From Candidatus Kerfeldbacteria bacterium (lineage in GTDB: Bacteria > Patescibacteriota > Patescibacteriia > SBBC01 > CAIJZX01), in contig JACPSJ010000001.1 of NCBI GenBank assembly GCA_016193315.1, forward strand, positions 155,981 to 219,980: a stretch of DNA of 64,000 nucleotides. Reading direction: 5' to 3'. Positions 7,215-61,462 of the stretch are shown here, piece after piece (positions within the stretch are counted from its first letter, which is position 1; every line of letters begins with the position of its first letter). Both the position numbers and the translations under genes were made by a program. The notes beneath the pieces are model-generated. The model was not told where the DNA came from. It worked only from the letters and a program-made list of their open reading frames with translations, and searched no databases.

Positions 7215-7575
7215 TGGAACAGATAAGGCGGAAGAGTGGGTGTCCGTCGCTAAGAATCATTGTTCTAACATCATCCACCAACCCCGACCAAGTTAGACAT
7301 TGAGAATTTTCGGAAGAAGGTACGCGCTCGCTTCGCTCGCGCGCTGGGGGGATTTTATTCTGATTTTCCGCCACAATTCGCCATTCGCCAGACCAATCCC
7401 AGCCGACTTTTTTGGCAAGCAGGCGGCGGTTCGTTCCAATTTTTTCCACCAACGATTTTATTTCATCAAAATCGATGGACGAAGCCAGTTTTTCGGCGTG
7501 GTGAGCGGTTAAAATCCATTCGCGCAAAGATTCGATCCAATTGTTTCCCTTTCGCCCAAAATCTGTCTTTTCCAA
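7168..7575 (-). CDS. Hypothetical protein (low-GC island)
   Basis: 135 aa ORF, overlaps 3' end of previous gene by ~45 bp. Confidence 0.3.
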   Translation of the reverse strand: MEKTDFGRKGNNWIESLREWILTAHHAEKLASSIDFDEIKSLVEKIGTNRRLLAKKVGWDWSGEWRIVAENQNKIPPARERSERVPSSENSQCLTWSGLVDDVRTMILSDGHPLFRLICSINSSKSLREFVQQAA

Positions 7576-7657
7576 TTGAGGTCGTGTGAACCACTATATG
7601 TCTGGGTACGTTACGTTTTCGACTGATTCCTTTGTCAAAATATGGTACACTACACAA

Positions 7658-9274: not shown

Positions 9275-9684
9275 GGCTGCCGAAAAAAAGCGGCGACGGG
9301 CGGCCCTCGGTAAACTCGGGACAGGCAGGCGGGCGGAATTTTTACCCCGCACCCGAAGTGGTGCGGCGGCCCCCTTGAACCCCCTTCCGCCCGCCCGCCA
9401 GAAGGCTAAAAATTCGCCCTCTCCGGCAGAGCCGGATCCGGCTTCGCCGGAAAAAAAGGTTCGCGCAGCGTTCAGCAAATTCGACCACATAAAACAAAGT
9501 TTCGAAGATAAGCTCTCCAGCTCTCCGGGGATTGATGGGTAGTGAGTTCAAACCAAACCGCAAGACTTCCTTATCATCGCATGAACCGACACCCCATCGG
9601 GCTTTGGGGTACGAGGGCACAGCCGGTTTTTAGTTATTTTGATATATTGACAAAATTGATTTTCTTCGATATATATACGGTGAT

Positions 9685-10818
9685 ATGTCGTTTTCCCCAT
9701 TACACCCCCATAAGCTACCAAAGCTTAGCCCAATTAGAATCACTAACGCCGAATACTGGCCCGAATTGATCCGTGCTCGCACATTGATTGCCGAGCTTCG
9801 GGGATTGAGTCTTACGCTCCCTAACCCCCTTCTGCTTATTTCTCCAGCAGTTATTCGAGAATCCATCGCTAGCTCTCAAATCGAAAATATTAATACTACA
9901 GTACAAGAAGTGTTACAGAGCCAACTGTTTCCTCTTGATGAGCAGCGATCTGTTGACAAAGAAGTTTTGCGGTACCGTGAAGCAGTTCTGTGGGGGTTCA
10001 AGCATAAGCGACTTCCCATCTCGACCCGTTTAATCCTTGGTATACATGAAAAGCTGATCCCAAGTGGGGGTGGACAATATCGAAAACAGCAAAACAAGAT
10101 CGAAGATAGCACCACACACGAAGTGCTTTATACACCGCCAATCGCTCCCGATGTCCCTATGCTGATGAGTGATTGGGAAAATACCGCCAATCAGCAGACG
10201 GAGGACCCCGATCCACTATTACGCTGTGCGATGCTTCATTATCAATTTGAGGCCATTCACCCCTTCCTTGATGGCAACGGTAGGACTGGGAGGATCTTGA
10301 TGGTCTTACAATTGGTCCGAGAGAAGCTGTTGCCCCTACCTACGCTTTTCGTTAGTGGGTACCTCGATCATCACCGCAGCGAATATTACAAACTTCTTCG
10401 CAACATTACCGCGCAAGGGGATTGGACACCGTATTTGCGATTCATGTTAGTTGCCTTTGCTGAACAGGCAGAGGAGACCCGTAATTTATTGTTAGCTATC
10501 CGGGGACTCTACTTTAGTACGAAACGAATTCTAAAGAAACGATTTAGCAGAATCTATTCTGTCGAGTTACTGGACGCTCTATTCTCAACGCCAATTATTT
10601 CTCCAGTGCGGCTTAGTGAAATCATCGGTACCCATTACGCTACTGCGAGTAAGTATCTGCAGCAACTTGCGAAGGCTGGATACTTAAGAGAGAGGTGGGT
10701 CGGGAAATACCATTTATACGCCAACACTCAATTGGTGAAAGTGTTTAGTATGCCACGTTTGGCGATCAGGCATGGTCGGGGTAAGAGTAATGCTGGACAA
10801 GATCGGAAGACGGCCTAA
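9685..10818 (+). CDS. Fic family protein (AMPylation/Fic-DOC) with C-terminal winged-helix domain
   Basis: Canonical Fic motif HPFLDGNGRTGR; low-GC segment. Confidence 0.85.
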   Translation: MSFSPLHPHKLPKLSPIRITNAEYWPELIRARTLIAELRGLSLTLPNPLLLISPAVIRESIASSQIENINTTVQEVLQSQLFPLDEQRSVDKEVLRYREAVLWGFKHKRLPISTRLILGIHEKLIPSGGGQYRKQQNKIEDSTTHEVLYTPPIAPDVPMLMSDWENTANQQTEDPDPLLRCAMLHYQFEAIHPFLDGNGRTGRILMVLQLVREKLLPLPTLFVSGYLDHHRSEYYKLLRNITAQGDWTPYLRFMLVAFAEQAEETRNLLLAIRGLYFSTKRILKKRFSRIYSVELLDALFSTPIISPVRLSEIIGTHYATASKYLQQLAKAGYLRERWVGKYHLYANTQLVKVFSMPRLAIRHGRGKSNAGQDRKTA

Positions 10819-11026
10819 ATGAGTTTAGCATTGTGAGACTCCTGGGCCCCATTTCTAGTATCATAGTTCTAACGTCGTCTACCAACCCCGACCCGACGAA
10901 CTATGATGCATGCCTGTCCGCCGTAGCGATGTGAAGGCGGCAATTATTAAACTCTGCTCGAACCTATTTTGAAATGATTTGCTTAGATAAAACGCTGTCG
11001 ACTCAAAAATCATTTCGAGAATATAT

Positions 11027-25024: not shown

Positions 25025-25951
25025 TCACTGCTTTACCCAGACTTCGAGTTCAGTAGCCGATGAACCACTTGGATATGCCGCACCACAGAACTCAATCTGA
25101 CACTCTGGGTTTGGAGGTTGTTCTACTCCGTTGCAGGTGTATCCATAAGGGAAGTAGCTGTATCCAAGGTCCATCTGCTCATTGATGAACAGGTTGGGCC
25201 CGCCTCCAAAGCATGGCCCGCTGTTAATGTTGTGGTAGACGGACCAAGAACGAAGTTCTCCACCCTGTGAGTATTTCTTGTTGGACGTCAGGGAGAAAAT
25301 GAAGTTGTGTCCGTACGGCCGTAAACAACCGCCGGCGCAACTGCTCGTCCAAGCGATGTCGGTATAACCACCGATGGTGTATCCATTCACCAATTGCACG
25401 ACGGTCAGCGATGGACCGCGGTTGTCACAGAGATTATGAAACGTCGTCGGGCTGGCTCCGTTCACGCTCTTTCGATAGCACAGCGTCCAGGTCTGGAACA
25501 CATTGCCAACCCAGGAATTGACCTGAAATTGCTGTGCCGGTGTAAGGATTGTGCTCCCAGGAAACGGCTGTTCGGGGATACTGACAAGCCGTTCCGCAAC
25601 ACCCGCTCGCACCGCATACGGCACGCTGCCGATCTTCGTCCGTGGCGTGAGTTCCGTTCCGCCGTTGACGCTAATACCTAGCCAACGAACCGATCCATCC
25701 CAGACGCTCTGGTCCGGATTGAGGTTGAGGTGGTAGACGCCGTTCCGGACGCTGACACCGGCGAAGGTCTCGCTGTACAGCGCTGAACCACCAGTAGAAT
25801 CGGCGTAGACGCTGATCGTGAGGTCTCTGCTGCCCATGACTAGCGACCCACTCTCCGACAACTGTCCGGAGTATGGGATTTGAAGGGGGACGGCGAGGGT
25901 GATCACCGGGAGTAAGAGCCCCAGCAATGCCATTAAGATTGTGCGCTTCAT
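25025..25951 (-). CDS. Secreted protein, paralog 1 of a tandem family (conserved N-terminal IPYSGQLSE...NLNPDQSVWDGSVRWLGISVNGG..TPRTKIGSVPYAVRAG module; Cys-rich divergent C-terminal domain)
   Basis: Signal peptide; ~110-aa module shared with the next three genes at >70% identity (DNA-level repeat also visible). Confidence 0.6.
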   Translation of the reverse strand: MKRTILMALLGLLLPVITLAVPLQIPYSGQLSESGSLVMGSRDLTISVYADSTGGSALYSETFAGVSVRNGVYHLNLNPDQSVWDGSVRWLGISVNGGTELTPRTKIGSVPYAVRAGVAERLVSIPEQPFPGSTILTPAQQFQVNSWVGNVFQTWTLCYRKSVNGASPTTFHNLCDNRGPSLTVVQLVNGYTIGGYTDIAWTSSCAGGCLRPYGHNFIFSLTSNKKYSQGGELRSWSVYHNINSGPCFGGGPNLFINEQMDLGYSYFPYGYTCNGVEQPPNPECQIEFCGAAYPSGSSATELEVWVKQ

Positions 25952-25969
25952 TACCGACCTCCTTACAAT

Positions 25970-26758
25970 CTACTGGTAGCGGTTGGGGAACCACATCGCA
26001 AACATGCTGCGATAGGTGATTTTCACGGTTCCCGTAGGACAGAACAGCGAGGCCATGAGGTAGAACGTCCGCGGGCCAGCGTTCACCTGGTAGGACCCTG
26101 TCATGGCCAATGGAACGTAGGTCACCCCCGGCCCAGTAACGGCAGTATGGAAATCGCCGTTTAGGTTTGGGGGGTTATCCGTCAATATGAGGTTGAGGCA
26201 ACCTGCGTCGGTCAGCCAACACAGTCCCCCTGTGTGGACCATGACATACCCATCCTCTGGGCAGTTGATGGAGATGCTGTCAACAGCCGTCCATTGCGTT
26301 TGCGTGATAGTAAGAATGGTTGTGGTGTTAACCATCCAGTTCAGACCGGGCGCGATGGCCGGATTCGTCAGAGCATCCGCATGCGATGCCACGCCCGCCC
26401 GCACCGCATACGGCACCGTGCCGACCTTGGTCCTAGGCGTGAGTTCGGCTCCGCCGTTGACGCTAATACCTAGCCAACGAACCGATCCGTCCCAGACGCT
26501 CTGGTCCGGGTTGAGGTTGAGGTGGTAGATGCCGTTTTGGACGGTCGCGCCCGCGAAGGTTTCGGCGTAGACTGGTGATCCACCGACTGAATCGGCATAG
26601 ATGTTGATGGTGAGGTCCCGTGTCCCATTCACGAGTTGCCCATTCTCCGACAGCTGACCGGAGTATGGGATTTGAAGGGGGACGGCGAGGGTGAGGGTTG
26701 GGACGAGGAGTCCCAGCAGAACTGCGAGGTACATCCGTTTCATTGTTTCCTCCTTCAT
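25970..26758 (-). CDS. Secreted protein, paralog 2 of tandem family (same N-terminal module, different C-terminal domain)
   Basis: As above. Confidence 0.6.
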   Translation of the reverse strand: MKEETMKRMYLAVLLGLLVPTLTLAVPLQIPYSGQLSENGQLVNGTRDLTINIYADSVGGSPVYAETFAGATVQNGIYHLNLNPDQSVWDGSVRWLGISVNGGAELTPRTKVGTVPYAVRAGVASHADALTNPAIAPGLNWMVNTTTILTITQTQWTAVDSISINCPEDGYVMVHTGGLCWLTDAGCLNLILTDNPPNLNGDFHTAVTGPGVTYVPLAMTGSYQVNAGPRTFYLMASLFCPTGTVKITYRSMFAMWFPNRYQ

Positions 26759-26782
26759 GGTGAGCTTGTCGAACCATGCTAC

Positions 26783-27610
26783 CTACTGGTAGCGGTTGGG
26801 GAACCACAAGACCTGTATAGCATGTCGGCGGTACCGGTAGTTCTGATCTGTCAAATTCTCTTTCTTCGCCCAAACCGAGATGGTGTGCGGTCCTTGGACA
26901 ATAGGCTGCATCTGGGCAATAGAAACTGGGATGTACTGCCAATCAATGCCAGACGATGCGGCCCCCAAAAGATAGCCACCATCAAAGTCGGACGGTGTTC
27001 CTTCTTGGATGCGCAATCTTCCGAGATACCTGGACGAGGCGTCGAGAATGACGCTTCCAGATGCGCTCATGAAGAGGAATCCATCAGCTGGGCAGGTCAC
27101 GGTGATCGAATCAACCACCACCCACAAGATTGATGTGACATCGAAAGCTCCTTGTTCTGATCCAGAGTACCTGAAGCTGGCTCCGGGCAAAAGTGGCGCG
27201 TTCGCGACAGCATCTGCAGTACCCGCCCGCACCGCATACGGCACGCTGCCGATTTTGGTGCGGGGTGTGAGTTCTGCTCCACCGTTGACTGACACCCCGA
27301 GCCACCGAACCGATCCATCCCAGACGCTCTGGTCTGGATTGAGGTTGAAGTGGTAGATGCCGTTCTGCAGATTGACTCTGGTGAAGGTTTCGGTGTAGAT
27401 CGCCGCGCCACCGGTTGAATCCGCGTAGACGGCGATGGTCAGGTCCCGTGAGCCAGTGACCAGCGTCCCGTTCTCCGACAGCTGGCCGGAGTACGGAATA
27501 CCATTCGGAACCGCTCCTACAGCTGAAGGAAAACAGAACAGCAAAAGCACGGGTACCACCGACTTCATGAGTTTCATCAGCATTCCCCTTTTCGTGTTGT
27601 CAAGGAGCAA
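26783..27610 (-). CDS. Secreted protein, paralog 3 of tandem family
   Basis: As above. Confidence 0.6.
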   Translation of the reverse strand: MLLDNTKRGMLMKLMKSVVPVLLLFCFPSAVGAVPNGIPYSGQLSENGTLVTGSRDLTIAVYADSTGGAAIYTETFTRVNLQNGIYHFNLNPDQSVWDGSVRWLGVSVNGGAELTPRTKIGSVPYAVRAGTADAVANAPLLPGASFRYSGSEQGAFDVTSILWVVVDSITVTCPADGFLFMSASGSVILDASSRYLGRLRIQEGTPSDFDGGYLLGAASSGIDWQYIPVSIAQMQPIVQGPHTISVWAKKENLTDQNYRYRRHAIQVLWFPNRYQ

Positions 27611-48828: not shown

Positions 48829-49154
48829 CAAAGGTGGTAACCACCGGCCTGGGTATTGAGCCTCTATCTCGGGGTCGCGATCACTACCGATGGCGACGGG
48901 CGAGGACGGTTGCCGGTGGCAACCGTCCGCAGCCCAGGCCCGAAGGGCGAATCCCGATGGTCACCCCATGCCCTCATAGCGAAATGGGTCTCGGCCGCAT
49001 CGAGCCAGGCGAGATAGCGAGCCAAACTACTTGGCTCGCGGCGGCCGGGACGGGCCGAGCATGTTTCGACCCCGAGCCTGCCGAGGGGGAGGAACGGCGA
49101 GGCCCCGGAACACAGCGACTTCGCCAGATAGGCGGCACGTCTTCCTCTGTCTTT

Positions 49155-49226
49155 GCCCTCGTAGCACAAAGGACAGTGCAAGGGACTTCTAAGCCCGAGA
49201 TGATGGTTCGATTCCATCCGAGGGCA
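49155..49226 (+). tRNA. Possible tRNA-Arg (anticodon TCT) with imperfect anticodon stem (may be pseudo-tRNA)
   Basis: 72 nt: acceptor GCCCTCG/CGAGGGC, D-arm GCAC-AAAGGACA-GTGC, loop CTTCTAA, T-arm GATGG-TTCGATT-CCATC; anticodon stem only 3 WC pairs. Confidence 0.35.
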
Positions 49227-49291
49227 GAGACATTGGCGGACGCATAGGCGTTCTAAGCCTTGAGGTGTAGGTTCGAATCCTACCGGGGGCA
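49227..49291 (+). pseudogene. tRNA 3'-half-like fragment (anticodon-arm AGGC-GTTCTAA-GCCT, T-arm GTAGG-TTCGAAT-CCTAC, acceptor-3' CGGGGGC) without matching 5' half
   Basis: Hand folding; directly abuts previous tRNA-like gene. Confidence 0.3.
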
Positions 49292-49416
49292 AATCCATGA
49301 CAGTCATGATCTCCTCAATTTTTTTGGGTTTCTTGCTATTGACGCTAGAGCCGTCTTTTGTCACCATAGCCACAATTTCAGTCGCTCCTTCCATCGACCC
49401 CAAAACCGAGGAGGTG

Positions 49417-50376: not shown

Positions 50377-53300
50377 GCTGGTGGCTTTTTCTGTTCACAT
50401 GGCGTTTGACAATGAACGAATGATTCGCTTGAATGGCGGGGCTGCGCCTAGCCCCGGATGGGTGCTGTTCCGCGTCCAAGTCCACGTCTCGGTCTGGCAA
50501 GGCATTCTTTGGGGCCCCGCGCCATTCAAGGTGCGGGGCGTTTTCTTGACATCAATCCATCCGGGTGGTTCTCTGTGACAGCGGTGACTAGGTTTGGCGC
50601 GCCGTCGAAGTCATGTCCGGCCACAGCCAAGCAATCGCAGCGTTCTCTCCGGAGCCCCGATGATGAAATCGGGGCTGTTTCTTGACATTCTCGAAATCCT
50701 TCTGTACATTGCTGTCGCTCACCTGGCAGGGTTTCCACCCGTTGACCACGCTCCGCAACGTTGGCGACAGCCACGACGACGTGCGGCCGGGACCGCTATT
50801 CTTTGGGGCCCCGATCAATCTGTCGGGGCTGTTTTTCTTGACAGACCGTCAGGTGTCATGTAAAAAAGTCTTCATCTTCGGTCAGCGCTGTCGCTTGGAT
50901 CGCCAACCTTGCGTCGGGCGCGCTGCGCCTAAGCCGACAGTGCCCAGCCTAGCTCCTCTCTGGATCCCGATCACTCACCTGGTCGGGATGTTTTTCTTGA
51001 CTAGCCCACGTACTCGTGGTACATAGCTGTCGATTGTATCCATTGCGGATGGGTGCGGACAGGTAGCCCGCGGCATAACAGGCCCAGCCAAGCCCGGGTC
51101 AGCCATTGTGGTCTTTGGGTCCCGATCTGACAACAGGTCGGGACATCTTTTTATTGACACGGGAACAGCCTAACGATATAGTACGGCGAACTCGGTTAGG
51201 TCCGGCTGCCTATGCCATGCTTCGCCCAAGCAAGCACCGGCCCCGCATCGACCGCCGTGCCAAGCCGTTCTCCGGATCCTCCGTCTCTGACGGAGGATAT
51301 TTCTTGACATGAAACTGTTCTCTTGTTAAAGCGGGGCTGGCTCCTTGCCCAGGTCAGGTGACGCCAGTTGCGCCGGGCTCAGCTGTCCCGGTACAGCCAA
51401 CGGCCAGCATTGCCGCCGCCAGCACAGGCATGTCTATCTTTCCTTCGGGTCCCGATCGCGCTAGATCGGGACTCTTCGCTTGACTTTTTTAAAAACTTTA
51501 GTATAAAATTATTGCGTTTCTCGCGGCTGTGTTCGCCCGGCCGAGCTAAGGAGTTGACAGCTCCGGCACGCTGCTGAACGGTAGGCTCCTCTTTGGGCCC
51601 CGCATCATTCTCGGAATGGCGTGGGGCTGTTTTCTTGACAACCATTGCTCGGACAGGTACTTTCCACTGCGCTCCGCGCGACGGGACATTTTCTTGACAA
51701 ACAGGCCGGGGTGTCCTAGGTTGTCTCGCGAACCACCTGGCCCGCCTGCGCGAGACAGGCAGCGCCGACGCAGGGTACTGATTGACTGGCCGTGGTGTAC
51801 TTGCGAGTTCTATGGGGCCCCGTCTGGTATTACCGAGCGGGGCCGTTTTTTTGACGAACCAAGACGAAACGAATATAGTGTTCGAGTCGTTTTCCGGCCA
51901 GGCCTGGTTGGGATAGCCACCCCATCCAGCGCCATGCCTCCCCGTGTCAGGGATAGGCCAGCACCTCTCCGGGCCCCGATCACGTTGATCGGGACTGTTT
52001 TCTTGACAGGGTGTGTATTTGCTCCTACCCTTAGCCAACGCCCCACGCCGACCTAGTCTGACGACAGCAAGGGTCAAGCAGACTATCACGCCGCAGGCCA
52101 CTTCAGGCTCCGGGTCCCGATCTGACAACAGGCCGGGACTTTTTTCTTGACAACTTTTGATATTGCACCTATCGTCTCGCCAGACAGTATTGCCGTACGG
52201 CACTGTTCGTCTAGCAACGGCACCGCTTCCCAACGAAGACCTAGCTAGCCTACGGGTCCCGGTCTGAAAACAGGTCGGGACGTTTTATTGACGAAAAAGG
52301 GATAAACAACTAAGGTGTCGAAGTTCTATCCGGCCAGGTACGCCGGGCACAGGCGGCCAGCGGAAAGCCACCGTCAGCCCCCGCTCGCCAACGTCCGTCG
52401 CGCTCCGCACAGCCCGTCTCTGGGTCCTCCGCCTCTGGCGGAGGACGTTTTTCTTGACGCGAATGGGAAGTCGGTGATACGGTGCGCCTTGCGTTGGCAA
52501 AACCCGGCTGACCATCGTTGGGCATCGTATGTTCCTCACCGCCGGACAAGCGCGTCAAACGCCAGGCAACTCTTTGGGTCCCGATTCTCACGACTCGGGA
52601 CTATTTATTGACACAGATTATTAACTCGAGTAGGCTCGCGGGAGTATCACGGCTGGGCGATACTTCCAACGCACCCGCATCCCGATCAGTGTCATGCTCC
52701 TCTGTGGGTCCCGGCCGCTATACGTTGCCGGGACATTTTCTTGACGCGCATACACCATTTTGCTAGTTTGCGCATTGGATTGGCTGGCCATGTTAAGGTC
52801 GGGCCCGACAGAGTGCCGCCAGCTGCGCAAGAGCATGCCCTACTATGGGTCCCGGTTCTGATGAATCGGGACTTTTTCTTGACATGCGCTCAATCCTCGC
52901 TTAGGGTGAAACGCGCCTCATGCAGTCCAGGCGAGGTCCGCTTTGGCTGAGTAAGGCATGAATGGCCTAGGTGCGGTTGGCTGCTCTACGGGTCCCGATT
53001 CTCACGACTCGGGACATTTTCTCGACACGACTTTTTCGATAATGTACTTTCTGACAACTTGGCCCGCCGGGCATTGGATGAGTAGGCCATGGCATCCTTC
53101 GGTCCACTTCGGGGCTCCCGCAAACACGGGAGCCGATTTTTTCTTGACTCTTGTTGGTTGATCAAGTAACTTGCCTATCGTCAAGTTTCACGGCTCGGTG
53201 AGGATAGCTCCGCACTGCCTAGCCGGAGCGCCGTCAGGTGACGTTCGCTTGGGATAGCTTTGGAGGCGGGACGCCAGTCTCGCCTTTTTGCTTGACAAGT

Positions 53301-53575
53301 TTCGATCGCAACCCTAAAGTTTCAGCTCTCGCCTCGCTCCGGTTCTGTGTGACAGGGCCAAGTACCGCAGCACGAACCTCTCTTTGGGGCTCCCCCATCA
53401 TGATGGGAGCCTTTTGTTTGACAATCTCATCCGGTAGGGTCTAAGTTCACACAGTACGCAGGGCCTCGGATAGCCGCGGAGCCCATTTCCTTCCCGTGTT
53501 TCGGCTAGGCCAGCCGTTCTAAGGGTCCCGACTTCATCGGTCGGGACTTATTCTTGCTTGACAAAATTGTGCATC
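50340..53575 (+). repeat. Array part 1: ~23 tandem promoter-body-terminator minigene units (~135-175 bp each). Unit = TTGACA -35 / 17 bp / TAnnnT -10 in variable region, ~70-100-nt variable GC-rich body, conserved tail (..CCTAGG..TCTTTGGG + GC hairpin of conserved structure but variable/covarying sequence + T4-6) directly abutting next TTGACA
   Basis: Read directly: -35 boxes at 50406, 50546, 50681, 50838, 50996, 51164, 51304, 51479, 51645, 51693, 51850, 52003, 52147, 52287, 52453, 52608, 52741, 52878, 53021, 53144, 53292, 53427, 53568; each followed at 17+-1 bp by TAnnnT (TACATT, TAAAAA, TACATA, TATAGT, TAAAGC, TATAAA, TATCGT, TAAGGT..). Confidence 0.7.
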
Positions 53576-53684
53576 TCCGTTAAGGCTGGTGTACGCTCCT
53601 TCCAATCCATCACTGGACTATCGGATCCGAAGGCGCGCTTCGTCCACGCTGTTTGCCTCTTCACCACATCTTTGGAGGCTCACC

Positions 53685-55532
53685 GTGAAGCGTCAGAAGC
53701 CGCGGCCACCATTGCCGCGCAAGCTCAACCTGCTGGAGTATTTTCCGTACCATCTGTACCCAGTCATGCGACCGAATCAGCGGCTTGGTCTCGAGACTAT
53801 TGAGGCCAACGACGGATTGGCGACCCTCGAAGCGCCGACCGGCAGCGGCAAGATGGCCATCGGCTACACCTTCCTCAAGGCGCTGGCCGCTCAGCGCCTG
53901 GGGCCGCTGTTCTACATCGTGCCGACGAAGACGCAGGTCGACCAACTCGTCCGGTACCACCCGGATCTCATCCCGGTCTACGGGCGGAACGAGCACGACT
54001 GTCTGTATTACCCGGACCTGTCGCTGAAGGCGGATGAAATTCCAACCGTCCTCTGCCCAGGCTGCGATCACTTCGTCAACCAGGAGACCGGCGCCGTCAA
54101 CGTACCCGGCGTCGTGCCCTGTCCGTACTACCTCCAGAAGTACCAGGCGAAGCAGGCGCCGATCGTCGTCTGCACCATGGCCTTCTACCTCTTCACCCAG
54201 CTCTTCTCGCAGGAGTGGGAGGAGCCGGCCGGCCTGGTCATCGATGAAGCGCACCAGTTCCCCCGGGTCGTCCGTAACTGCCTCAGCTACGAGATTACCG
54301 ACTACCACTTGTGGCGGTCGGCCGACCTCTTGGCGGAGATCGACGGCGTCGCCGCGCACCAACTGCGGGACTTCGGCCGGAAGATGATTTCGATCATCAA
54401 GCGGAAGCCAGCCGGGCAGGGAACGCTGCTCAAGGACGAGGAGATCATTCAGCTTATCGAGCTGCTCGACGTCATCGACGCCGGGGCGGTCGAACGCGCC
54501 CTCAGCCGGGCCATTCGGCAGGGGCTGATCGACGTCAAGCAGGACCGCGAGACGTTGAAGCAGCTGGAGACGATCGTTCGCGACCTGCGGCGGTACCTCC
54601 ACACCCTCGAGTACTCGCTGCCGACGAAGCAGCGGCACGCCCTGAACTACACCTACGGCTTCTACGAGGAGGAGATGGGGCCGAACGACAAGGCTCAGTA
54701 CCGTCTGGTCATCAAGGCGCACTACGTCGCGCCGATTATCGCCAAGATCCTGAGCCCGCGGACGGTGGCGTATTCGGCCACCATCGGCGATCCGCCGATC
54801 TTCCAGGGCGAGACGGGTATCCGCGCCGACGTCTTCGAGTTCGGTTCGGAATTCTCTCATCTGAAGACGCGGGTGTTCATGCCGACGGACACTAAGAACC
54901 TGGCCTTCAACACCCGGGGTCGACAGGATGTTACCCGGACGCTGCGGCTGGTGGCCAAAGCGGCCCGTCGCTTCGCCCAACGGGGTCACCGCTCTCTGGT
55001 GGTGATCGTGTCGGAGAAGGAGCGGCAGAAGTTCTTGACCCTGGCCGAGGAGGAGCGGCTGAAGGTCCTGAGCTACGGGAATGGGTCACCCGCTAAGACA
55101 GTGGCAGCCCGGTTTCTTGGCGGTGAAGGAGATTGCCTGGTCGGCACCACCGCCCAGTACGGCGAGGGGATCGATTTGCCACGGCAGTCGGCGCCGGTCA
55201 TCTTTATGCTCCGGCCTGGCTACCCGCATCCGGACGATCCGGGCACGCAGTTCGAGGAGCGGCGCTTCAGCACCGGGCAGGTCTGGGCCATCCGCCAGTG
55301 GCGGGTGATGATGGAAGCGCTCCAGGTGCGGGGCCGGAACATCCGTTCCAGCGACGACCTCGGCGTAACCTTCTTCATGTCCCAGCAGTTCCGGAAGTTC
55401 CTGCGCAGCAGCCTGCCGAAGTGGCTCGAGCGGGCCTACCGCAACACCCGCACCTTTGACCAGTGCGTCGAGGAGACGATGGAGTTGTTGAGCCGAGGCG
55501 ATCGAGGTCTGACGGCTGGAATACAGCAGTGA
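53685..55532 (+). CDS. DinG/XPD/Rad3-family superfamily-2 DNA helicase with FeS-cluster cysteines (type IV CRISPR Csf4-like size)
   Basis: Start GTG 53685 after GGAGG; Walker A-like TGSGKM, DEAH box (VIDEAHQF), four Cys (HDCLYY, CPGCDHF, CPYY) in FeS insertion, C-terminal helicase motifs (GTTAQYGEGIDLP); expressed from the -35/-10 of the last array-1 unit and terminated by first array-2 hairpin. Confidence 0.8.
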   Translation: MKRQKPRPPLPRKLNLLEYFPYHLYPVMRPNQRLGLETIEANDGLATLEAPTGSGKMAIGYTFLKALAAQRLGPLFYIVPTKTQVDQLVRYHPDLIPVYGRNEHDCLYYPDLSLKADEIPTVLCPGCDHFVNQETGAVNVPGVVPCPYYLQKYQAKQAPIVVCTMAFYLFTQLFSQEWEEPAGLVIDEAHQFPRVVRNCLSYEITDYHLWRSADLLAEIDGVAAHQLRDFGRKMISIIKRKPAGQGTLLKDEEIIQLIELLDVIDAGAVERALSRAIRQGLIDVKQDRETLKQLETIVRDLRRYLHTLEYSLPTKQRHALNYTYGFYEEEMGPNDKAQYRLVIKAHYVAPIIAKILSPRTVAYSATIGDPPIFQGETGIRADVFEFGSEFSHLKTRVFMPTDTKNLAFNTRGRQDVTRTLRLVAKAARRFAQRGHRSLVVIVSEKERQKFLTLAEEERLKVLSYGNGSPAKTVAARFLGGEGDCLVGTTAQYGEGIDLPRQSAPVIFMLRPGYPHPDDPGTQFEERRFSTGQVWAIRQWRVMMEALQVRGRNIRSSDDLGVTFFMSQQFRKFLRSSLPKWLERAYRNTRTFDQCVEETMELLSRGDRGLTAGIQQ

Positions 55533-55559
55533 ACAACGAATAGGCAAAACCTGGGTTAC

Positions 55560-58500
55560 CAAGTGTAGGCAACCCCCAGGCAAGAAAGAGTGCTCTCTGG
55601 GACCCCCGATCGAATGATCGGGGGTCGTTTTCTTGACAGGTGTTGAGCTTATCATTAACCTGCAGCCGCTAGCTACGGACCGGCTAGGAACGGTGGGCCA
55701 CGTTTTGGCTGAGTCCGGACGGCCGGACCCAGGTCGCCTAGAGTGTTCTATGGGGCCCCGATCATTTGGTCGGGGTCGTTTTTTGACTTCCTCCAAGGTT
55801 GGGTGTAGGGTCTTCCAATCCGCCAGCCTTCGGCAGGTAACGGTAGTTCTGGGTAGCCAGTCCTGTGGCACGGGCTCCAACGCGCGGATGGGATCGCCTT
55901 GGTTTTGCATGGTTTGTCTCGCTCCGGGTCCTCCGCCTTTGGTGGAGGACTTCTTTCTTGACATAAAGCAACCAAGCGAGTAGGAAGTTGATACCGGAGT
56001 GGTACGCGCCGCCCCGGAAAGCTAGGCTCTTTGGCGGTATGCCACGCTGGCCTGCACTGCGGGACCTCATTCGGAAGAATGAGGTCGTTTTTCTTGACAT
56101 GCCCACGAAATAATTCTAGTGTGCGAGCGCCGCGCCTAGGAATTCTTTGGAGCCCCGTTCGCAAGAACGGGGCTGCTTTCTTGACACGACCTATTTTTTC
56201 CTGTAAGACCTTTTGCACCCGGTGCTGAATCCAATGCACTGGTGCGCCATCGCGCGGCAGCCGCATCAATCGGCACGCTGGGCTACGCTTCGGGACGGTG
56301 ACTCACCATGGTCGCCGTCTTTTTTCTTGACACGACGAATGCAATGCAATAGGCTTGCCCAGCAGTATTCCCGCTGCGGACAGCCATGACCCGCACCGTT
56401 CCGCTAGGCTGCGGTCAGCCGTTCTTTGGAGCTCCGTTCGCAAGAATGGGGTCAATTTCTTGACAAACTGCCTGATTCAGTTAGCCTACCCAATCACCAG
56501 AAGTCCCATCCTCAGCCTTGGTGTCCCGTGACAACCATCGCTATGGTTGGGCCTGGTCCGGAGGGCCGTCCTTTGGAGCCCCGTTCGTCAGAGCGGGGCT
56601 TTTTCTTGACTGCCGTTATTACTTTTGATAGGGTCGGCCGACACGCCTAGGCTTGCCTTGGTTAACCAAGCACCGCCGTCGTCGGCCACCCCAGCGCCAT
56701 CTTCGGAGCCCCTGATCATTCGATCGGGGGCGTTTTTCTTGACTCTCGCTGGATCATCCTGTACAACGTCCAAACCAGGTGTGCCTGACCTGCCAGGACC
56801 ATGCCTGTGTGGGCCTTGGAATGCACGGCCATACTCTGGGGCCAGCTCGTCTTTACGCGAGTTGGCCTACTTCTTGACAGCGTGAAAGCATTACTCTAGT
56901 TTTCAGCCATTCCATGCGCCTCGGATAGCTGCGCTATCGCGCGATGCGTAGCGGAACGGACTGGTGGAGTAGTCATTGGTTCTCTGTGGGGTCCCATCAG
57001 TCGGTGGGGGCTTCTTCTTGACTGAACGAAAAATACGCTGATAGATTCTGTCGACCCGCCAGGGAAAGCAAAGCCGCGGAATTCCTCGGATCGCCGCGCC
57101 TCGCCTGCCTGTGCCATGACAGCCTGATCTTCGGTGCCTCATCCATCCGGGTGGGGCATGTTTCATGACATCCCCTGGGGAGAGAGAATAATCTTGGTTG
57201 TCCACGCGCCTCGGAAAGCTTTCCTAATGGCGATACGTAATTGAACTGATTTCGTGGTTGTAAGTGGCTATCCTTGGTTTCCCGACGTAATGTGGGGCTT
57301 TCTCCTTGACCAGAACACTCAATTGTCTGTAATTTTCCAATCCTCGGAAAACCATGGTCCGGCGGGCCTGTCTCTGCCTGCGTCAGCCTCGCTCTTCCAG
57401 GCTTAGCCTCGCTTTGGGTCCTCCGTCGCTGACGGAGGACATTTTCTATTGCGATTGCTTGACAAATCCGGGGATGACGATTAGGTTGCCGACACTAGGC
57501 TGGCCCGGCTTTCCTAGGGCAAGTCGGCCTGTCCCGGAGCATCCGGCGGACAGCTCAGCATAGCCATTCTTTGGATCCCACGCAACCGCGGTGGGACTTT
57601 TCTTGACTTTCCGAGGGCCCCGTTCTAAAGTGCCGCGGCTGGATCAAGGCTCGGATAGGCCTCCTTGGCCCCGCAAAGCCTAGGAACCTCTGGCCGCGGA
57701 CGGCCCCGGACAGGATCTCCCTCCCGTTCTTTGGGTCCCCATCAGCCATGGTGGGGATGCTTTCTTGACCGACGAAAATGGATTTGCTAGTTTCTTGCGG
57801 CCATATGGTTAGGCCGGGAACGGCGGCCATCGGTGTTCCAAGCACCGCCTTGGCCAGGCTCGCCTTGCTCCACTTCGGGACCCTGCAGAAATGCGGGGTC
57901 ATTTTCTTGACCTTCTGAAGTTCGAAGCTTATGTCCGTCTGACGTGGTATGGTCGGCTTGGCTAGCGCTGCGTGTCCCTCGCCAGACTCCCCATCGCCAT
58001 CCCTGCTCTAGGCGTCGTGTTCTCCGGAGCCCCGTTCGAAAGAGCGGGGCTGCTTTCTTGACATCGCCCACACCGGGATGTACGGTCGAATGACGCGATG
58101 ATGAACTGTGCCAAGCCAGTCATCGGCCCGCCAGCGCGAGACGCCCCGCCCTTTGCTGCGCAATGCCTCCGCTCTCTATGGGGTCCGTTCGGCAGAACGG
58201 ATCTGTTTCTTGACAGCGTGTGAATTTGGCCGTAGATTTTTTTTGCTTAGGCCGTGGTTCATGATTGTCTTTGTAAGCGGAAACCAGCCCAGGCTAGGTG
58301 TCCCCAGCACTGGCATGGTCGGCTTGCAAGTGGCCAACCACGCCCTGGATGTCTACGGGCCCAGCCCGTGTTTCTGAATCATGACGGGCTGGGCTTTTTT
58401 CATGAGCTTCATCCGGGAACGCAATCTACTGACAAACCAACACGGTTCGGCTAATTTGTCTTGGCATCAGGCGGTTTTTTCGTCAGCCTTAGTGTCGCGT

Positions 58501-59060
58501 GATAACCATCGGTCTGGTTGGGTCTGTTCCGGAGGGCTGTACTTCGGGGCCTCGCTCCACATGAGCGAGGCTGCTTCTTGACGCTAAGTTCATCTCATGA
58601 TAAACACCCGGTCGTCGCAGTCGGCGCCTTGAAACTCATAGTACTCCCGGAACGCCAGCGATCGCCGCAGTGCGGAATTCCAGACCACCGCATCCCCAGC
58701 CGCCGCACGCTCCGTCAGACTTTGGGCCCGACCGCGCAAGCGCGTCGGGCATTTTTCTTGACTAGTTTCATGCTCTGTAGTAGGTTCGTCGGTGTCCGCC
58801 ATGCCCACGCCAGTTTCGGAATGGTATCCTCCCGCCAGTCGCGGCAGTCTGTGGCCCGCTCTGGAGTCCCGATGGTAACACCGCCTTGGGACTTTTCTTG
58901 ACGCCCTGCTCATTCGTTGATAAGAGTATGATGGTTCTGAAATTGATTTCTCGGAATCGACCCGGCAGGCCCAGGATTCCCGAGTCTCGCCATCCCAGCC
59001 ACACCCCAGCTCCTCTTCGGGGCCCCGCCAGCCATCGCGGGGCCATCTTCTTGACAAAAC
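55560..59060 (+). repeat. Array part 2: ~24 further promoter-body-terminator minigene units of the same family
   Basis: -35 boxes at 55633, 55782, 55959, 56095, 56181, 56328, 56460, 56605, 56739, 56873, 57018, 57165 (ATGACA), 57306, 57459, 57603, 57764, 57906, 58058, 58209, ~58398 (degenerate), 58578, 58758, 58898, 59050; same TCTTTGG-hairpin-Tn tails. Confidence 0.7.
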
Positions 59061-59166
59061 CAGGGCGGTTTTGCTAAGGTCGCGGATCGCCTTTTGTTTG
59101 GGCGAACCTGGCTACGCAGGACGCGTGGCAGCTGTACCATCCAATTCTTTGGAAAGGGGCCACCCA

Positions 59167-59811
59167 ATGGCCAACAAGCGGAAGCGCGTCACCGTCCGGT
59201 GCGTCGGGATCGAGCCGATCCTCTTCAACGCCATTCCCGAAGGCCTGCTCATGGACCTGCTGAAGGGCAAGAGCCGGCCGAAGGTGAAGGGCGACGACGT
59301 CGACCTCGACAAGATCTGCGAGGACAAGCTCTACGTCGACGACGACGGCACGCCGTGCATCCCGCGGCTGAACATGTTCGCCGCCCTGAAGTACGCCGGC
59401 AAGTTCGTCAAGGCCGGCAAGAAGAACATCACCGGTGGTGACTCGACCCAGCTGCCGTCGATCCTGACGGTCGAGGGAACGCTGTTCCGTCTCGACAACG
59501 GGACGGCGAACGGCAAGCCGGAGTGGAAGATGGATCTCCGCGCCGGCCGTCACCGCCAGGGCACCTCGAAGGTCATGGTCGCCCTCGTTCGGCCCCGCTT
59601 CGACCGCTGGGGCTTCACCGCCACGGTCTCCTGCGCCGACGACGACGCCACGATCAAGACGGTCAAGCAGCTGTTCTGGGAGGCCGGCGACAAGGCTGGT
59701 CTCGGCGACTACCGCCCCTCGTCGGGCGGCTTCTACGGCCGCTTCCGGCCGGTGGGCTTCACCGTCGAGGACATGGTCGAGGAGACCGAGTTCGCGGCGG
59801 CCGTGGCCTAG
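59167..59811 (+). CDS. Basic ~214-aa protein, paralog A (array-associated); C-terminal glycine-rich loop GLGDYRPSSGGFYGRF reminiscent of RAMP (Cas5/Cas6-type) G-rich loops - tentative
   Basis: ATG 59167 after AAAGGGG; driven by last array promoter (TTGACA 59050); N-terminus RKRVTVRCVGIEPILFN shared with paralog B. Confidence 0.55.
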   Translation: MANKRKRVTVRCVGIEPILFNAIPEGLLMDLLKGKSRPKVKGDDVDLDKICEDKLYVDDDGTPCIPRLNMFAALKYAGKFVKAGKKNITGGDSTQLPSILTVEGTLFRLDNGTANGKPEWKMDLRAGRHRQGTSKVMVALVRPRFDRWGFTATVSCADDDATIKTVKQLFWEAGDKAGLGDYRPSSGGFYGRFRPVGFTVEDMVEETEFAAAVA

Positions 59812-59893: not shown

Positions 59894-60532
59894 ATGCTGC
59901 GGATTCACGTCCGATGTGTCGGCCTCGCCCCGCTATTGATGAACCGGCCCGACCAGCAAGCGCTGGTCGAGTGCGTCGCCGGCAACGGCCGCTCGTCCCG
60001 TTCGGACCAGGAGGTCTTCGAGTCGAAGATCTACCGGGCGCCGGACGGACGGATCGCCCTGCCGCGGCCGATGCTCCTGGCCGTGCTGAAGAACGCCGGT
60101 CGCGAGGTCAAGCTCGGTCGCCAGAAGGTGACCACCCCCGAATCGACGCTGCTCAGCAGCCTGCTGAGCATCAAGGAGGAGTATCTCACCCTCGACGGCG
60201 GCCGGCCTGGTTCGGAGCCGCTGGTCGAGCGGGATTCCCGTCGGGCCATCCAGCGGCAGGGTCGGAAGCAGGAGCGGGTGCGGGCCGTCCGCCCGAAGAT
60301 CAAGCGGTGGGGATTCGAGGTGACGCTCTGCGTCAGTTCGCCCTCCCAGGCGCGGATCGCCCGCCAGCTGTTCGATGTCGCCGGGGCCGAGGGCTACCTC
60401 GGCGATTTCCATCCATCGTCCAAGTTTCGCAAGAAGCTCAAGGCGAACGGCTGGAAGGCTCCGTTCAATCGGTTCGCCGTGACCGAATGGGCGGTCGAGG
60501 CGGTGCTCGAGGAAGCGATGGCAGCGGTGTAG
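59894..60532 (+). CDS. Basic ~212-aa protein, paralog B (N-terminus MLRIHVRCVGLAPLLMN; shared motifs K(I/L)Y..DG, RWGF..T)
   Basis: ATG 59894 after GGAGG; ~25-30% identity to paralog A by eye. Confidence 0.55.
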   Translation: MLRIHVRCVGLAPLLMNRPDQQALVECVAGNGRSSRSDQEVFESKIYRAPDGRIALPRPMLLAVLKNAGREVKLGRQKVTTPESTLLSSLLSIKEEYLTLDGGRPGSEPLVERDSRRAIQRQGRKQERVRAVRPKIKRWGFEVTLCVSSPSQARIARQLFDVAGAEGYLGDFHPSSKFRKKLKANGWKAPFNRFAVTEWAVEAVLEEAMAAV

Positions 60533-60747: not shown

Positions 60748-61071
60748 ATGTACATTCCCAAGCGAATTCTGCTCATGGTCGTGCTAGCGTTGGTGCTAGT
60801 GGGTACCACGGCCTTCACCCGTGTGCGACGCGCGACTACGGTCCCGAATGTGGAGATAATCTCCCTCGGGCTGAACGCCACGTTCGCCGACGGGAAGCCG
60901 ATTACCAAGCCGATCCGACTGGCTCTCCACCGCGTCGGCACGAAGCATCTCGGCGCACAGTACGTGGTGGTGACCGGGCAGCCCGACAGGAATGGCTTTA
61001 TGACTGTTACCGCCAAGGTCCCGGTTGACCCGAAGTTTCAACCGTTGGTGCGGCTGGCGCTTCAGAGATAA
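60748..61071 (+). CDS. Small secreted/membrane-anchored protein (signal peptide)
   Basis: ATG 60748 after GGAGG; preceded by a degenerate array-type tail+promoter (TCCTTTGG-hairpin-TTTTT..CTTGACA-17-TAGGCT at ~60595-60680). Confidence 0.45.
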   Translation: MYIPKRILLMVVLALVLVGTTAFTRVRRATTVPNVEIISLGLNATFADGKPITKPIRLALHRVGTKHLGAQYVVVTGQPDRNGFMTVTAKVPVDPKFQPLVRLALQR

Positions 61072-61081
61072 TGGAGGAATC

Positions 61082-61462
61082 GTGGACCACCCAACCTATA
61101 TTTATCTTCAGCCCGGCGAGCAAAACGAGCCGCGGCGAAGGCAGCTGGAAGCCAAGCTCGAGGCCTACCGGCGTCGGGTGGCCGAAGCCGGCGACAGTCC
61201 AAGCGGAGGCGTCGAACCGTTCTGGTTTTGGAACGACCGGGCCAAGCTGATCATCCTCGAGCGGTTGCTCAGAGACGGGCGGGTCGATCGGACCGAGCTG
61301 CATCGGGAACTCTGGCTCAATCATGCTACGAACCCGATCGTCAGATACTCGCACTGGCAGTACGGCAACCCCTTCCACACCGCCTTCGACGTGATATTCG
61401 ACTACGTTGAAACCGGCGGCGCGAACGTCATGGGAGGTTCTGGCCTGCCATCACCCCAGTGA
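61082..61462 (+). CDS. Hypothetical protein (~126 aa)
   Basis: GTG 61082 after GGAGG; Trp/aromatic-rich C-terminal half. Confidence 0.4.
   Translation: MDHPTYIYLQPGEQNEPRRRQLEAKLEAYRRRVAEAGDSPSGGVEPFWFWNDRAKLIILERLLRDGRVDRTELHRELWLNHATNPIVRYSHWQYGNPFHTAFDVIFDYVETGGANVMGGSGLPSPQ

What the first reader, a model, noticed from the sequence alone, without database searches (positions are those of the whole stretch)
53568..55640. DinG/XPD-like FeS helicase embedded as one cassette inside the minigene array
The helicase gene uses the array unit's own -35/-10 (TTGACA 53568, TAAGGC) and an added GGAGG RBS. Its stop is followed within 60 bp by a standard array tail and the next TTGACA, so it occupies exactly one unit slot. 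DinG (Csf4) is the signature helicase of type IV CRISPR-Cas. A DinG family helicase sitting in a guide-like RNA array suggests an RNA-guided helicase/interference module, but target, PAM and adaptation machinery (no cas1/cas2 in window) are absent.
Basis: partly seen in the sequence, partly recalled or inferred. Interest (0 to 1): 0.85.

Follow-up and report, generated by a model that had tools for sequence, protein, structure and literature searches.

The report
Helicase inside a VIPR guide-RNA array
The helicase sits in the middle of about 45 small guide-RNA genes of a VIPR system, a CRISPR-like RNA-guided DNA-recognition system first described in 2026. This copy is in a Patescibacteria chromosome, and the helicase is its conserved but still uncharacterised accessory enzyme.

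Summary
A 615-aa XPD/DinG-fold helicase with four conserved cysteines (GTG 53685 to 55532) lies between two blocks of about 22 promoter-to-terminator units each (50406-53557 and 55633-59050). It uses a promoter of the same type as the units and ends in a unit-type tail and terminator.

The "minigenes" are vrRNA genes of a VIPR system (bioRxiv 10.64898/2026.04.26.720920). Their bodies show strong 5-nt periodicity with consensus G-S-H-N-N, typically 10-18 pentamers, then a conserved TCT-NN-GG plus hairpin tail.

Two Cas7-like Vipr paralogs lie at 59167-59811 and 59894-60532. Their family profile matches the solved SUSP1 Vipr protein at E=1.8e-12, and the model has a Cas7/Csm3 fold.

In 63 of 68 Patescibacteria species loci the helicase lies next to vipr, usually flanked by period-5 tracts. 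It is therefore a dedicated VIPR accessory (vap), not a housekeeping dinG and not type IV Csf4.

In one pair of orthologous guides the NN positions are conserved (25/28) while the scaffold positions drift (23/42). No targets were found.

Verdict: a new member of a recently described kind. The RNA-guided idea was right; the CRISPR type IV link is only an analogy.

The parts
50406..53557 (+). vrRNA array, block A: 22 promoter-to-terminator units. One is truncated (51635-51693).
   Evidence: Each unit has TTGACA, 17 nt, TAnnnT, then a body, then TCTnnGG, a GC hairpin and a T-run. The bodies show 5-nt periodicity.
52288..52453 (+). Example vrRNA gene: 17 in-phase pentamers (52332-52416), tail TCTCTGG, and a terminator hairpin at 52424-52446.
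53558..53684 (+). Helicase promoter (-35 53558-53563, -10 53581-53586) and 5' leader, with TCTTTGG followed by GGAGG (53674-53678). The leader is not pentamer-phased. Its last ~50 nt are conserved in L005, L007 and L009.
53685..55532 (+). XPD/DinG-fold SF2 helicase with four conserved cysteines, 615 aa. It is the presumed VIPR accessory protein (vap).
   Evidence: Synteny with vipr.
55533..55632 (+). Helicase 3'UTR: a weak pentamer tract (55544-55583), tail TCTCTGG (55594-55600) and terminator hairpin (55601-55626). There is no promoter of its own. In L005 and L007 the same position holds a 17-pentamer vrRNA.
55633..59050 (+). vrRNA array, block B: about 23 units. 58210-58577 holds two units.
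57459..57602 (+). vrRNA gene with an ortholog in L007 (12727-12872). NN positions are 25/28 identical; scaffold positions are 23/42.
59051..59166 (+). Array-type promoter (TTGACA, 18 nt, TAAGGT) and leader of the vipr operon, with the TTCTTTGG motif before the start codon.
59167..59811 (+). vipr-1, 214 aa, a minimal Cas7-like RAMP.
   Evidence: The family profile hits PDB 36pp_D, SUSP1 Vipr, at E=1.8e-12 over the full length. PHROG 4652 at 1.5e-16. AF2 model pLDDT 91. Foldseek hits Cas7/Csm3 with probability 1.0.
59894..60532 (+). vipr-2, 212 aa, a paralog 34% identical to vipr-1 with an insertion in the glycine-rich loop.
   Evidence: P0126.

Best explanation
This is a chromosomal VIPR (Viral Interference Programmable Repeat) locus of a Candidatus Kerfeldbacteria (Patescibacteria) genome.

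Shown by sequence:
- About 45 units each carry a sigma-70-type promoter and an intrinsic terminator.
- Each unit would give an RNA of roughly 100-120 nt.
- Its body is typically 10-18 pentamers of the form G-S-H-N-N, followed by a conserved TCT-NN-GG plus hairpin tail.

Inferred from the SUSP1 work:
- The two Cas7-like Vipr proteins polymerise along the pentamers, one protomer per repeat.
- They bury the G-S-H triplets and present the NN dinucleotides.
- The NN dinucleotides pair with double-stranded DNA, skipping every third target base, and form an R-loop triplex that blocks transcription.

Inferred and untested anywhere:
- The XPD/DinG-fold helicase is the accessory (vap) enzyme.
- It loads on DNA opened by the Vipr-vrRNA filament and translocates 5'->3', extending or enforcing interference.
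- This would work much as CasDinG does for type IV-A CRISPR.

The helicase gene occupies one unit slot. It uses a unit-type promoter, and its mRNA ends in a vrRNA-like tract, tail and terminator.
For: Vipr identity:
- Profile hit to the solved SUSP1 Vipr, E=1.8e-12, full length.
- PHROG 4652 for both paralogs.
- High-confidence model with Cas7/Csm3 as top folds.

vrRNA identity:
- Lag-5/10 identity excess is 0.085, against 0.000 +/- 0.006 in shuffles and -0.009 +/- 0.007 in random pieces of the window.
- The pentamer profile is G 0.83, then C/G, then no G, then N, N.
- 31 of 43 units have at least 10 in-phase pentamers.
- The tail is conserved and in phase with the pentamers.
- These match the published anatomy: ~100-nt vrRNAs, 9-16 (up to 30) YNNGG-type repeats plus a tail, and vap genes that include helicases.

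Information in NN:
- In the orthologous unit pair, NN positions are 25/28 identical against 23/42 for the scaffold, Fisher p=0.003.

Dedicated partnership:
- vipr lies next to the helicase in 63 of 68 species loci.
- Period-5 windows make up 23% of the vipr-helicase gaps and 18% of the 1.2 kb downstream, against 0.36% inside the helicase CDS.
- Arrays also flank the helicase in L005/L006 and L007/L008.
Against: - No expression data exist for these RNAs.
- No target was found. There is no local match above shuffled guides under skip 0-3.
- Eight exact 1-nt-skip scans of viral and metagenome contigs gave only chance-level seeds.
- The scaffold triplet (G-S-H) is more degenerate than the published GGY.
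- 12 of 43 units are poorly phased.
- The helicase's role is pure inference. The preprints do not characterise any helicase vap.
- Which of the seven published types this is cannot be read from the text available.
Confidence: 0.85

Rival explanations
1. Same VIPR machinery, different biological role. In Patescibacteria the system could be a vertically inherited regulator of cellular DNA, either the cell's own genes or those of the host bacterium it lives on, rather than an anti-phage or anti-MGE weapon.
For: - The context is chromosomal and non-viral.
- The module is present across many Patescibacteria lineages, with helicase identity of 40-78%.
- The NN code of one guide is conserved between two species whose helicases are 73% identical. 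This implies a conserved target.
- No viral hits were found.
Against: - No self-target was found in about 55 kb of the same genome or about 1.1 Mb of related loci.
- The preprint reports no self-targeting for other types, and viral targets for the chromosomal types III and V.
- Most guide bodies are not conserved between relatives, as expected for an arms race.
- My target scans required exact matches and were few.
Confidence: 0.2
2. The helicase is an ordinary housekeeping XPD/DinG repair helicase, and the array happened to grow around it.
For: - It has all core XPD/DinG features: Walker A, DEAH and four conserved cysteines.
- It is widespread, about 600 aa, in small genomes.
- One full-flank ortholog, L061, has no vipr and no period-5 tract nearby.
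Against: - 63 of 68 orthologous loci keep vipr within a few kb, 54 of them upstream on the same strand.
- Most have period-5 tracts on both sides.
- It fails every NCBIfam DinG, YoaA and Rad3 cutoff by a wide margin.
- In the two closest relatives its 3'UTR is a full 17-pentamer vrRNA, and a weaker 8-pentamer tract holds that place here.
Confidence: 0.05
3. A divergent type IV (or other class 1) CRISPR-Cas system, with Csf4-like DinG and unusual self-transcribed 'spacers'.
For: - The PADLOC model PDLC01439, labelled typeIV_DinG, matches over the full length at E=4e-43.
- Vipr has a Cas7-like fold.
- CasDinG structures are among the fold hits.
Against: - No direct-repeat/spacer array is present.
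- cas_csf4 scores 13 bits against a cutoff of 400.
- There are no PADLOC hits for the small proteins.
- CasDinG is absent from the sequence-profile hits.
- The guides are built from pentamers, not contiguous spacers.
Confidence: 0.02
4. The units are generic small regulatory RNAs, or mere promoter-terminator modules, unrelated to the neighbouring proteins.
For: No Rfam or tRNA match. The bodies are poorly conserved between species.
Against: - Strong 5-nt periodicity with a G-S-H-N-N profile.
- The same tracts accompany vipr and the helicase across the phylum.
- Conservation is specific to the NN positions in the ortholog pair.
Confidence: 0.03

Closest known systems
VIPR systems (Vipr + vrRNA + vap), bioRxiv 10.64898/2026.04.26.720920 and 10.64898/2026.04.26.720927. 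The characterised examples are type II from phage SUSP1 and a P. fulva prophage.
   Same: - Vipr homolog: minimal RAMP, G-loop motif GxGDxRP..FGRF aligned.
- vrRNA genes of roughly 100 nt made of pentamer repeats plus a conserved 3' tail.
- An adjacent accessory gene.
- No CRISPR array.
- The preprints say some types carry predicted helicases.
   Different: - The accessory gene here is an XPD/DinG-fold helicase rather than a small DNA-binding Vap1.
- The scaffold triplet is G-S-H, not strict GGY.
- The tail is TCT-NN-GG plus a terminator hairpin. No SUSP1-type pseudoknot was looked for.
- About 45 guides, each with its own promoter and terminator, against 4 in SUSP1.
- Two vipr paralogs.
- Chromosomal in Patescibacteria rather than phage-borne.
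- The type (probably the helicase-bearing type IV) could not be verified, because the figures and data tables are not available.
Type IV-A CRISPR-Cas (Csf2/Cas7 filament on crRNA plus CasDinG/Csf4)
   Same: A Cas7-like backbone on a guide RNA, paired with an XPD/DinG-fold 5'->3' helicase and no nuclease. Interference is expected without cleavage. CasDinG is a fold match at E about 1e-17, TM about 0.6.
   Different: - No CRISPR repeats, Csf1, Csf3 or Cas6.
- The helicase keeps four conserved cysteines and fails the Csf4 model.
- The guide is read discontinuously.
XPD/Rad3 and bacterial DinG/YoaA repair helicases
   Same: The fold and motifs match. The best sequence-profile hits are XPD at 5.7e-19. 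The best fold hits are E. coli DinG at 8e-23 and XPD at TM 0.72.
   Different: It scores far below all family cutoffs. Its genomic context is fixed to vipr and vrRNAs.

Membership tests
VIPR system | Vipr protein: a minimal RAMP homologous to characterised Vipr | tested here: met
   Profile of 45 homologs against PDB 36pp_D, SUSP1 Vipr: E=1.8e-12, residues 4-197 of 209. Cas7/Csm3 fold. PHROG 4652 for both paralogs.
VIPR system | vrRNA genes: tracts of pentanucleotide repeats (YNNGG or related), 9-16 or up to 30 units | tested here: met
   Lag-5/10 identity excess is about 14 sd above shuffles. Profile G-S-H-N-N. 31 of 43 units have 10-18 in-phase pentamers.
VIPR system | Conserved 3' tail after the repeat tract | tested here: met
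   C-T-N-N-G-G immediately before a GC hairpin in 41 of 42 units. T and GG are invariant in the 39-unit alignment. The sequence differs from the SUSP1 tail.
VIPR system | Accessory vap gene in the locus | tested here: met
   Helicase next to vipr in 63 of 68 species loci. The preprints list helicases among vaps.
VIPR system | vrRNAs are expressed and bound by Vipr | not testable with these tools
   Only promoter and terminator consensus evidence is available.
VIPR system | NN dinucleotides specify a dsDNA target with a 1-nt skip | tested here: inconclusive
   No target found. Indirect support: NN positions are conserved 25/28 against 23/42 for the scaffold in an ortholog pair.
VIPR system | No CRISPR array or adaptation module | tested here: met
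   No CRISPR-like repeats in the window. Not every ORF was scanned for cas1/cas2.
Type IV CRISPR-Cas | CRISPR repeat-spacer array | tested here: not met
Type IV CRISPR-Cas | Csf4/CasDinG equivalog | tested here: not met
   TIGR03117 scores 13 bits against a cutoff of 400. No CasDinG in the sequence-profile hits. There is only fold-level similarity and one PADLOC model labelled typeIV_DinG.
Type IV CRISPR-Cas | Csf1, Csf2, Csf3 (plus Cas6) effector genes | tested here: not met
   No PADLOC hit for the six proteins flanking the array.
XPD/DinG helicase superfamily | SF2 core with Walker A, DEAH, a four-cysteine cluster between them, and the XPD/DinG fold | tested here: met
Housekeeping DinG / YoaA / Rad3 | Reaches the curated equivalog or subfamily score | tested here: not met
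   32.5 against 598 (DinG), 34.1 against 680 (YoaA), 42.3 against 247 (rad3).

The most novel reading that the evidence does not exclude
Helicase-type VIPR may be a vertically inherited, near-universal chromosomal RNA-guided system of Patescibacteria. From general knowledge, this phylum mostly lacks CRISPR-Cas. Its pairing of a Vipr filament with an XPD/DinG helicase would be the functional, and possibly evolutionary, counterpart of type IV CRISPR (Cas7 + CasDinG). At least some guides have an NN code conserved between species, so they may target conserved cellular DNA of the cell itself or of its host bacterium. That would make it RNA-guided gene control in episymbiosis rather than phage defence.
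Probability: 0.15. Interest if true: 0.85.

Novelty: new member of a known kind. Interest (0 to 1): 0.58.

Why it matters
VIPR was described only in 2026, and its helicase accessory genes are uncharacterised.

This locus is a clean natural case for studying them. It has a large set of about 45 separately transcribed guides, two Vipr paralogs, and an XPD/DinG-fold helicase wired into the array. The helicase uses a unit-type promoter, and a vrRNA-like tract sits in its 3'UTR.

The same vipr / vrRNA / helicase / vrRNA layout recurs in 60-odd Patescibacteria species. It is therefore a conserved module in a phylum with tiny genomes, which argues for an important function.

The layout gives direct handles for experiments on what a helicase adds to nuclease-free RNA-guided DNA binding. 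It also bears on the relationship between VIPR and type IV CRISPR.

Practical point: a PADLOC 'typeIV_DinG' model matches these helicases over their full length, so pipelines may label such loci as type IV-A remnants.

Tried and rejected
- **tRNA or known RNA families in the array:** none found.
- **Coding minigenes:** rejected. The bodies have 5-nt, not 3-nt, periodicity, and no Shine-Dalgarno/start pair is visible in them.
- **CRISPR array:** none found.
- **Close helicase relatives with a single-protein scan of genome contigs:** nothing. The alignment-based scan worked.
- **Conservation of unit bodies between relatives by blastn:** only one unit is conserved.
- **Array gain or loss between the four samples carrying this organism:** the arrays are identical.
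- **Tail covariation with RNAalifold:** the alignment is poorly registered because stem lengths vary. Only 3 pairs were called, so I rely on the per-unit hairpins.
- **Local targets:** searching the window and 74 loci under skip 0-3 gave no signal above shuffled guides. The skip-3 'hits' are homologous vrRNAs.
- **Targets in public collections:** six viral and two metagenome exact-pattern scans found nothing. The four seeds extend to only 21-23 of 28 positions, with the skipped base at codon position 1 of a large (742-aa) phage ORF of unidentified function, so I treat them as chance.
- **Phage copies of the helicase by tblastn:** none.
- **Assigning the published VIPR type:** not possible. The figures and data tables are not held.
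- **107-aa and 126-aa ORFs after vipr-2:** no homolog in any of the related loci, so they are not counted as parts.
Full report
**1. What is at the coordinates**

- The + strand from 50406 to 59166 is an array of about 45 short units with a median length of 146 bp.
- Each unit starts with TTGAC(A) directly after the T-run of the preceding unit. TA(nnn)T follows 16-18 nt later in 44 of 46 cases, against a background of 0.085. Each unit ends in a GC-rich hairpin plus T-run.
- TTCTTGACA with up to one mismatch occurs 48 times in the window, against 11.0 +/- 3.2 in shuffles. Forty of these lie on the + strand between 50543 and 59056.
- There are 33 terminator-like sites on the + strand, against 10.8 +/- 4.2 expected for both strands.
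- ARAGORN and Rfam find nothing inside the array.

The helicase ORF runs from GTG 53685 to 55532 and encodes 615 aa.
- Its -35 is at 53558-53563.
- Its -10, TAAGGC, is at 53581-53586, and GGAGG is at 53674-53678.
- After the stop come a weak pentamer tract (55544-55583), the unit tail TCTCTGG (55594-55600), a hairpin (55601-55626), a T-run and the next TTGACA at 55633.

**2. The helicase**

- Pfam gives Helicase_C_2 and DEAD_2.
- A search of 5.8 billion proteins finds more than 400 homologs. The best 120 are 51-100% identical and about 600 aa long, and every named one comes from a Patescibacteria or unclassified-bacterium MAG. The exact protein is NCBI HYY50_01185 of a Candidatus Kerfeldbacteria MAG on an 857-kb contig.
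- In 40 aligned homologs the Walker A residues (G53, G55, K56), the DEAH residues (D187, E188, H190) and C106, C127 and C146 are invariant. C163 is at least 90% conserved.
- A profile of the family hits XPD/Rad3 best (5.7e-19), then FANCJ and CHL1, then DinG at 6.8e-11. It does not hit CasDinG.
- An AlphaFold model (pLDDT 87.5) matches E. coli DinG (8e-23), XPD (TM up to 0.72) and CasDinG (about 1e-17, TM about 0.6).
- NCBIfam models for DinG, YoaA, Rad3 and Csf4 all fall far below their cutoffs. Csf4 scores 13 bits against 400.
- One PADLOC model labelled typeIV_DinG matches over the full length at 4e-43.

The protein is therefore an XPD/DinG-superfamily helicase of its own subfamily. It is not Csf4.

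**3. The missed effector**

The last array-type promoter (59051) drives two paralogous genes of 214 and 212 aa (59167-59811 and 59894-60532). They are 34% identical to each other and have no Pfam or PADLOC hit.

- A profile of 45 homologs hits a single PDB entry, 36pp chain D, 'SUSP1 Vipr protein'. The match has E=1.8e-12 over the full length, and the RP..W and GxGDxRP..FGRF motifs align.
- Both paralogs match PHROG 4652.
- The AlphaFold model (pLDDT 91.2) has Cas7-family RAMPs (Csm3, type VII Cas7) as its top 50 fold matches, all with probability 1.0.
- The family is large: 7,976 cluster representatives at E<=1e-3 and 465 at E<=1e-30.

**4. What the literature says**

Two 2026 preprints describe VIPR systems (10.64898/2026.04.26.720920 and 10.64898/2026.04.26.720927).

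- A VIPR system consists of a vipr gene (a minimal RAMP), an accessory vap gene, and vrRNAs of about 100 nt.
- Each vrRNA is made of 9-16 (up to 30) YNNGG-type pentamers followed by a conserved 3' tail.
- Vipr protomers coat the repeats and hide the GGY motif. The NN dinucleotides pair with dsDNA while every third target base is skipped.
- No PAM is required, and the outcome is transcriptional silencing.
- Seven types exist. Types III-V carry predicted nucleases or helicases, and types III and V are the only ones with nucleases.
- I therefore infer that the helicase type is type IV. The text never says so, and it does not mention DinG, XPD or Patescibacteria.

**5. Are the units vrRNA genes?**

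- Unit bodies show identity of 0.326-0.332 at lags 5, 10 and 15, against 0.21-0.285 at other lags. The helicase CDS shows the usual 3-nt periodicity instead.
- The lag-5/10 excess is 0.085. Shuffles give 0.000 +/- 0.006 (maximum 0.020), and random pieces of the window give -0.009 +/- 0.007.
- An iteratively refined pentamer profile is G (0.83), C/G (0.52/0.42), C/T/A (no G), N, N. This is a relaxed GGY-NN.
- Thirty-one of 43 units hold 10-18 pentamers in one unbroken phase. Twelve units are short or poorly phased.
- The conserved TCT-NN-GG lies in the same phase as the pentamers and abuts the terminator hairpin. C-T-N-N-G-G is found there in 41 of 42 units.
- The helicase leader is not pentamer-phased. 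The helicase shares the promoter type and the tail with the units, but its leader is not a guide.

**6. Is the association conserved?**

- An alignment-based scan of one genome per species returned 68 loci.
- A vipr homolog lies next to the helicase in 63 of them. In 54 it is upstream on the same strand, with a median gap of 1,159 nt. In 4 it is downstream, as here. These 4 include the two Kerfeldbacteria-clade relatives L011 and L012.
- Strong period-5 windows fill 23% of the vipr-helicase gaps and 18% of the 1.2 kb after the helicase. Inside the helicase CDS they make up 0.36%.
- 46 of 54 gaps and 51 of 62 downstream flanks have at least three such windows.
- The nearest relatives (helicase 73-78% identical) have arrays on both sides of the helicase.
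- In the two closest relatives the helicase stop codon is followed directly by a 17-pentamer vrRNA with tail and terminator and no promoter. The mRNA therefore carries a guide in its 3'UTR.
- Only one locus with full flanks (L061) lacks both vipr and the tracts.

The helicase is a dedicated VIPR partner.

**7. Evolution of the guides**

- Bodies are not alignable between relatives, except for one unit.
- In that orthologous pair (window 57459-57602 and L007 12727-12872), the NN positions are 25/28 identical. The scaffold positions are only 23/42 identical (Fisher p=0.003).
- This is the pattern expected if the NN positions carry the information and this guide's target is conserved.
- Arrays are identical in the four metagenome samples that carry this organism.

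**8. Targets**

- No match better than shuffled guides exists under skip 0-3 in the rest of the window or in about 1.1 Mb of related loci.
- Eight exact 1-nt-skip pattern scans were run, six of viral contigs and two of metagenome contigs. One used the conserved guide with degenerate positions. They gave nothing, or seeds that extend only to chance level.
- These scans demand perfect matches and cover few guides. The result is uninformative rather than negative.

**9. Context**

- The window is ordinary chromosome. It holds a G6PD-6PGD fusion, a DEAD-box helicase, histidine kinases, an aldehyde dehydrogenase, a PilT-like ATPase and tRNAs.
- There is no CRISPR array.
- Vipr homologs without a helicase occur in 25 Mycobacterium and 2 Gordonia phage records (Quico checked).
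- The helicase has no tblastn match in 50,697 phage records.

**10. Verdict**

- The locus is a VIPR system whose accessory enzyme is the XPD/DinG-fold helicase.
- Shown here: the anatomy, Vipr homology and fold, the pentamer code, the conserved synteny, and NN-specific conservation in one pair.
- Inferred from the SUSP1 work: filament assembly, 1-nt-skip DNA recognition and silencing.
- Inferred without any precedent: that the helicase is recruited to the opened target and acts like CasDinG.
The type IV CRISPR link is an analogy, not membership.
- Because VIPR, including helicase-bearing types, is already described, this is a new member of a known kind.
- Features not stated in the available preprint text are the Patescibacteria-wide conserved layout, one promoter and terminator per guide, a roughly 45-guide array, two vipr paralogs, and a vrRNA in the helicase 3'UTR.

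Noticed in passing
window 53630-53684; L005 9945-10000; L007, L009 equivalent: The last ~50 nt of the helicase 5'UTR (CTTCGTCCACGCTGTTTGCCTCT..CACATCnTTGGAGGCTCA) are conserved in four genomes, although the vrRNA bodies around it are not. This could be a regulatory leader.
   Followed up: partly
window 53669-53678 and 59143-59156: The vrRNA tail motif TCTTTGG also sits just upstream of the start codons of the helicase and vipr-1. There its GG runs into the purine-rich ribosome-binding site. This suggests protein genes captured in unit slots, or a shared origin of the tail and the RBS.
   Followed up: no
window 53685-55532: The PADLOC model PDLC01439, labelled typeIV_DinG (CAS-IV-A associated), matches this VIPR helicase over its full length at E=4e-43. 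NCBIfam Csf4 fails. Annotation pipelines may mislabel VIPR helicases as type IV-A.
   Followed up: partly
window 4666-5250 and 49154-49293: tRNA-Arg (4666-4740) is followed by three tRNA-3'-end-like repeats at 4869, 5025 and 5227. tRNA-Arg(tct) (49154-49227) is followed by a partial tRNA copy ending at 49293. These may be integration scars or tRNA fragments.
   Followed up: no
window 7253-10893: 37-nt direct repeats (86% identical) at 7253 and 10857 flank a low-GC (0.48-0.50) segment that encodes a Big_7 protein and a Fic protein. The segment lies downstream of tRNA-Pro (6040-6113) and may be a small integrated island.
   Followed up: no
window 19980-22319: A single 779-aa ORF fuses glucose-6-phosphate dehydrogenase with 6-phosphogluconate dehydrogenase domains.
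   Followed up: no
window 25025-27610 (- strand): Three tandem paralogous genes, seen as 300-nt repeats that are 77-83% identical (D1).
   Followed up: no
window 51635-51693 and 58210-58577: Irregular units. One is a 59-bp truncated unit with a promoter and T-run but almost no body. The other is a 368-bp stretch holding two terminators, with a second, non-consensus promoter (CTGACA..TAATTT).
   Followed up: no
L020 6900-7900 and 9770-11050: In other Patescibacteria the vrRNA tail has a different sequence (GCACGGGGCGGGG hairpin), and many units lack their own promoter. The array architecture therefore varies within the helicase-type systems.
   Followed up: partly
L083 (Mycobacterium phage Quico 37686-38285): The mycobacteriophages and two Gordonia phages with a match (Quico inspected) encode a Vipr homolog (Quico gp57) near the immunity region. 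It has about 400 nt of upstream intergenic DNA and no helicase, and is annotated as hypothetical.
   Followed up: partly
window 60748-61462: Two small ORFs (107 and 126 aa) follow vipr-2. They have no Pfam, PADLOC or PHROG hit and no homolog in 74 related loci.
   Followed up: partly
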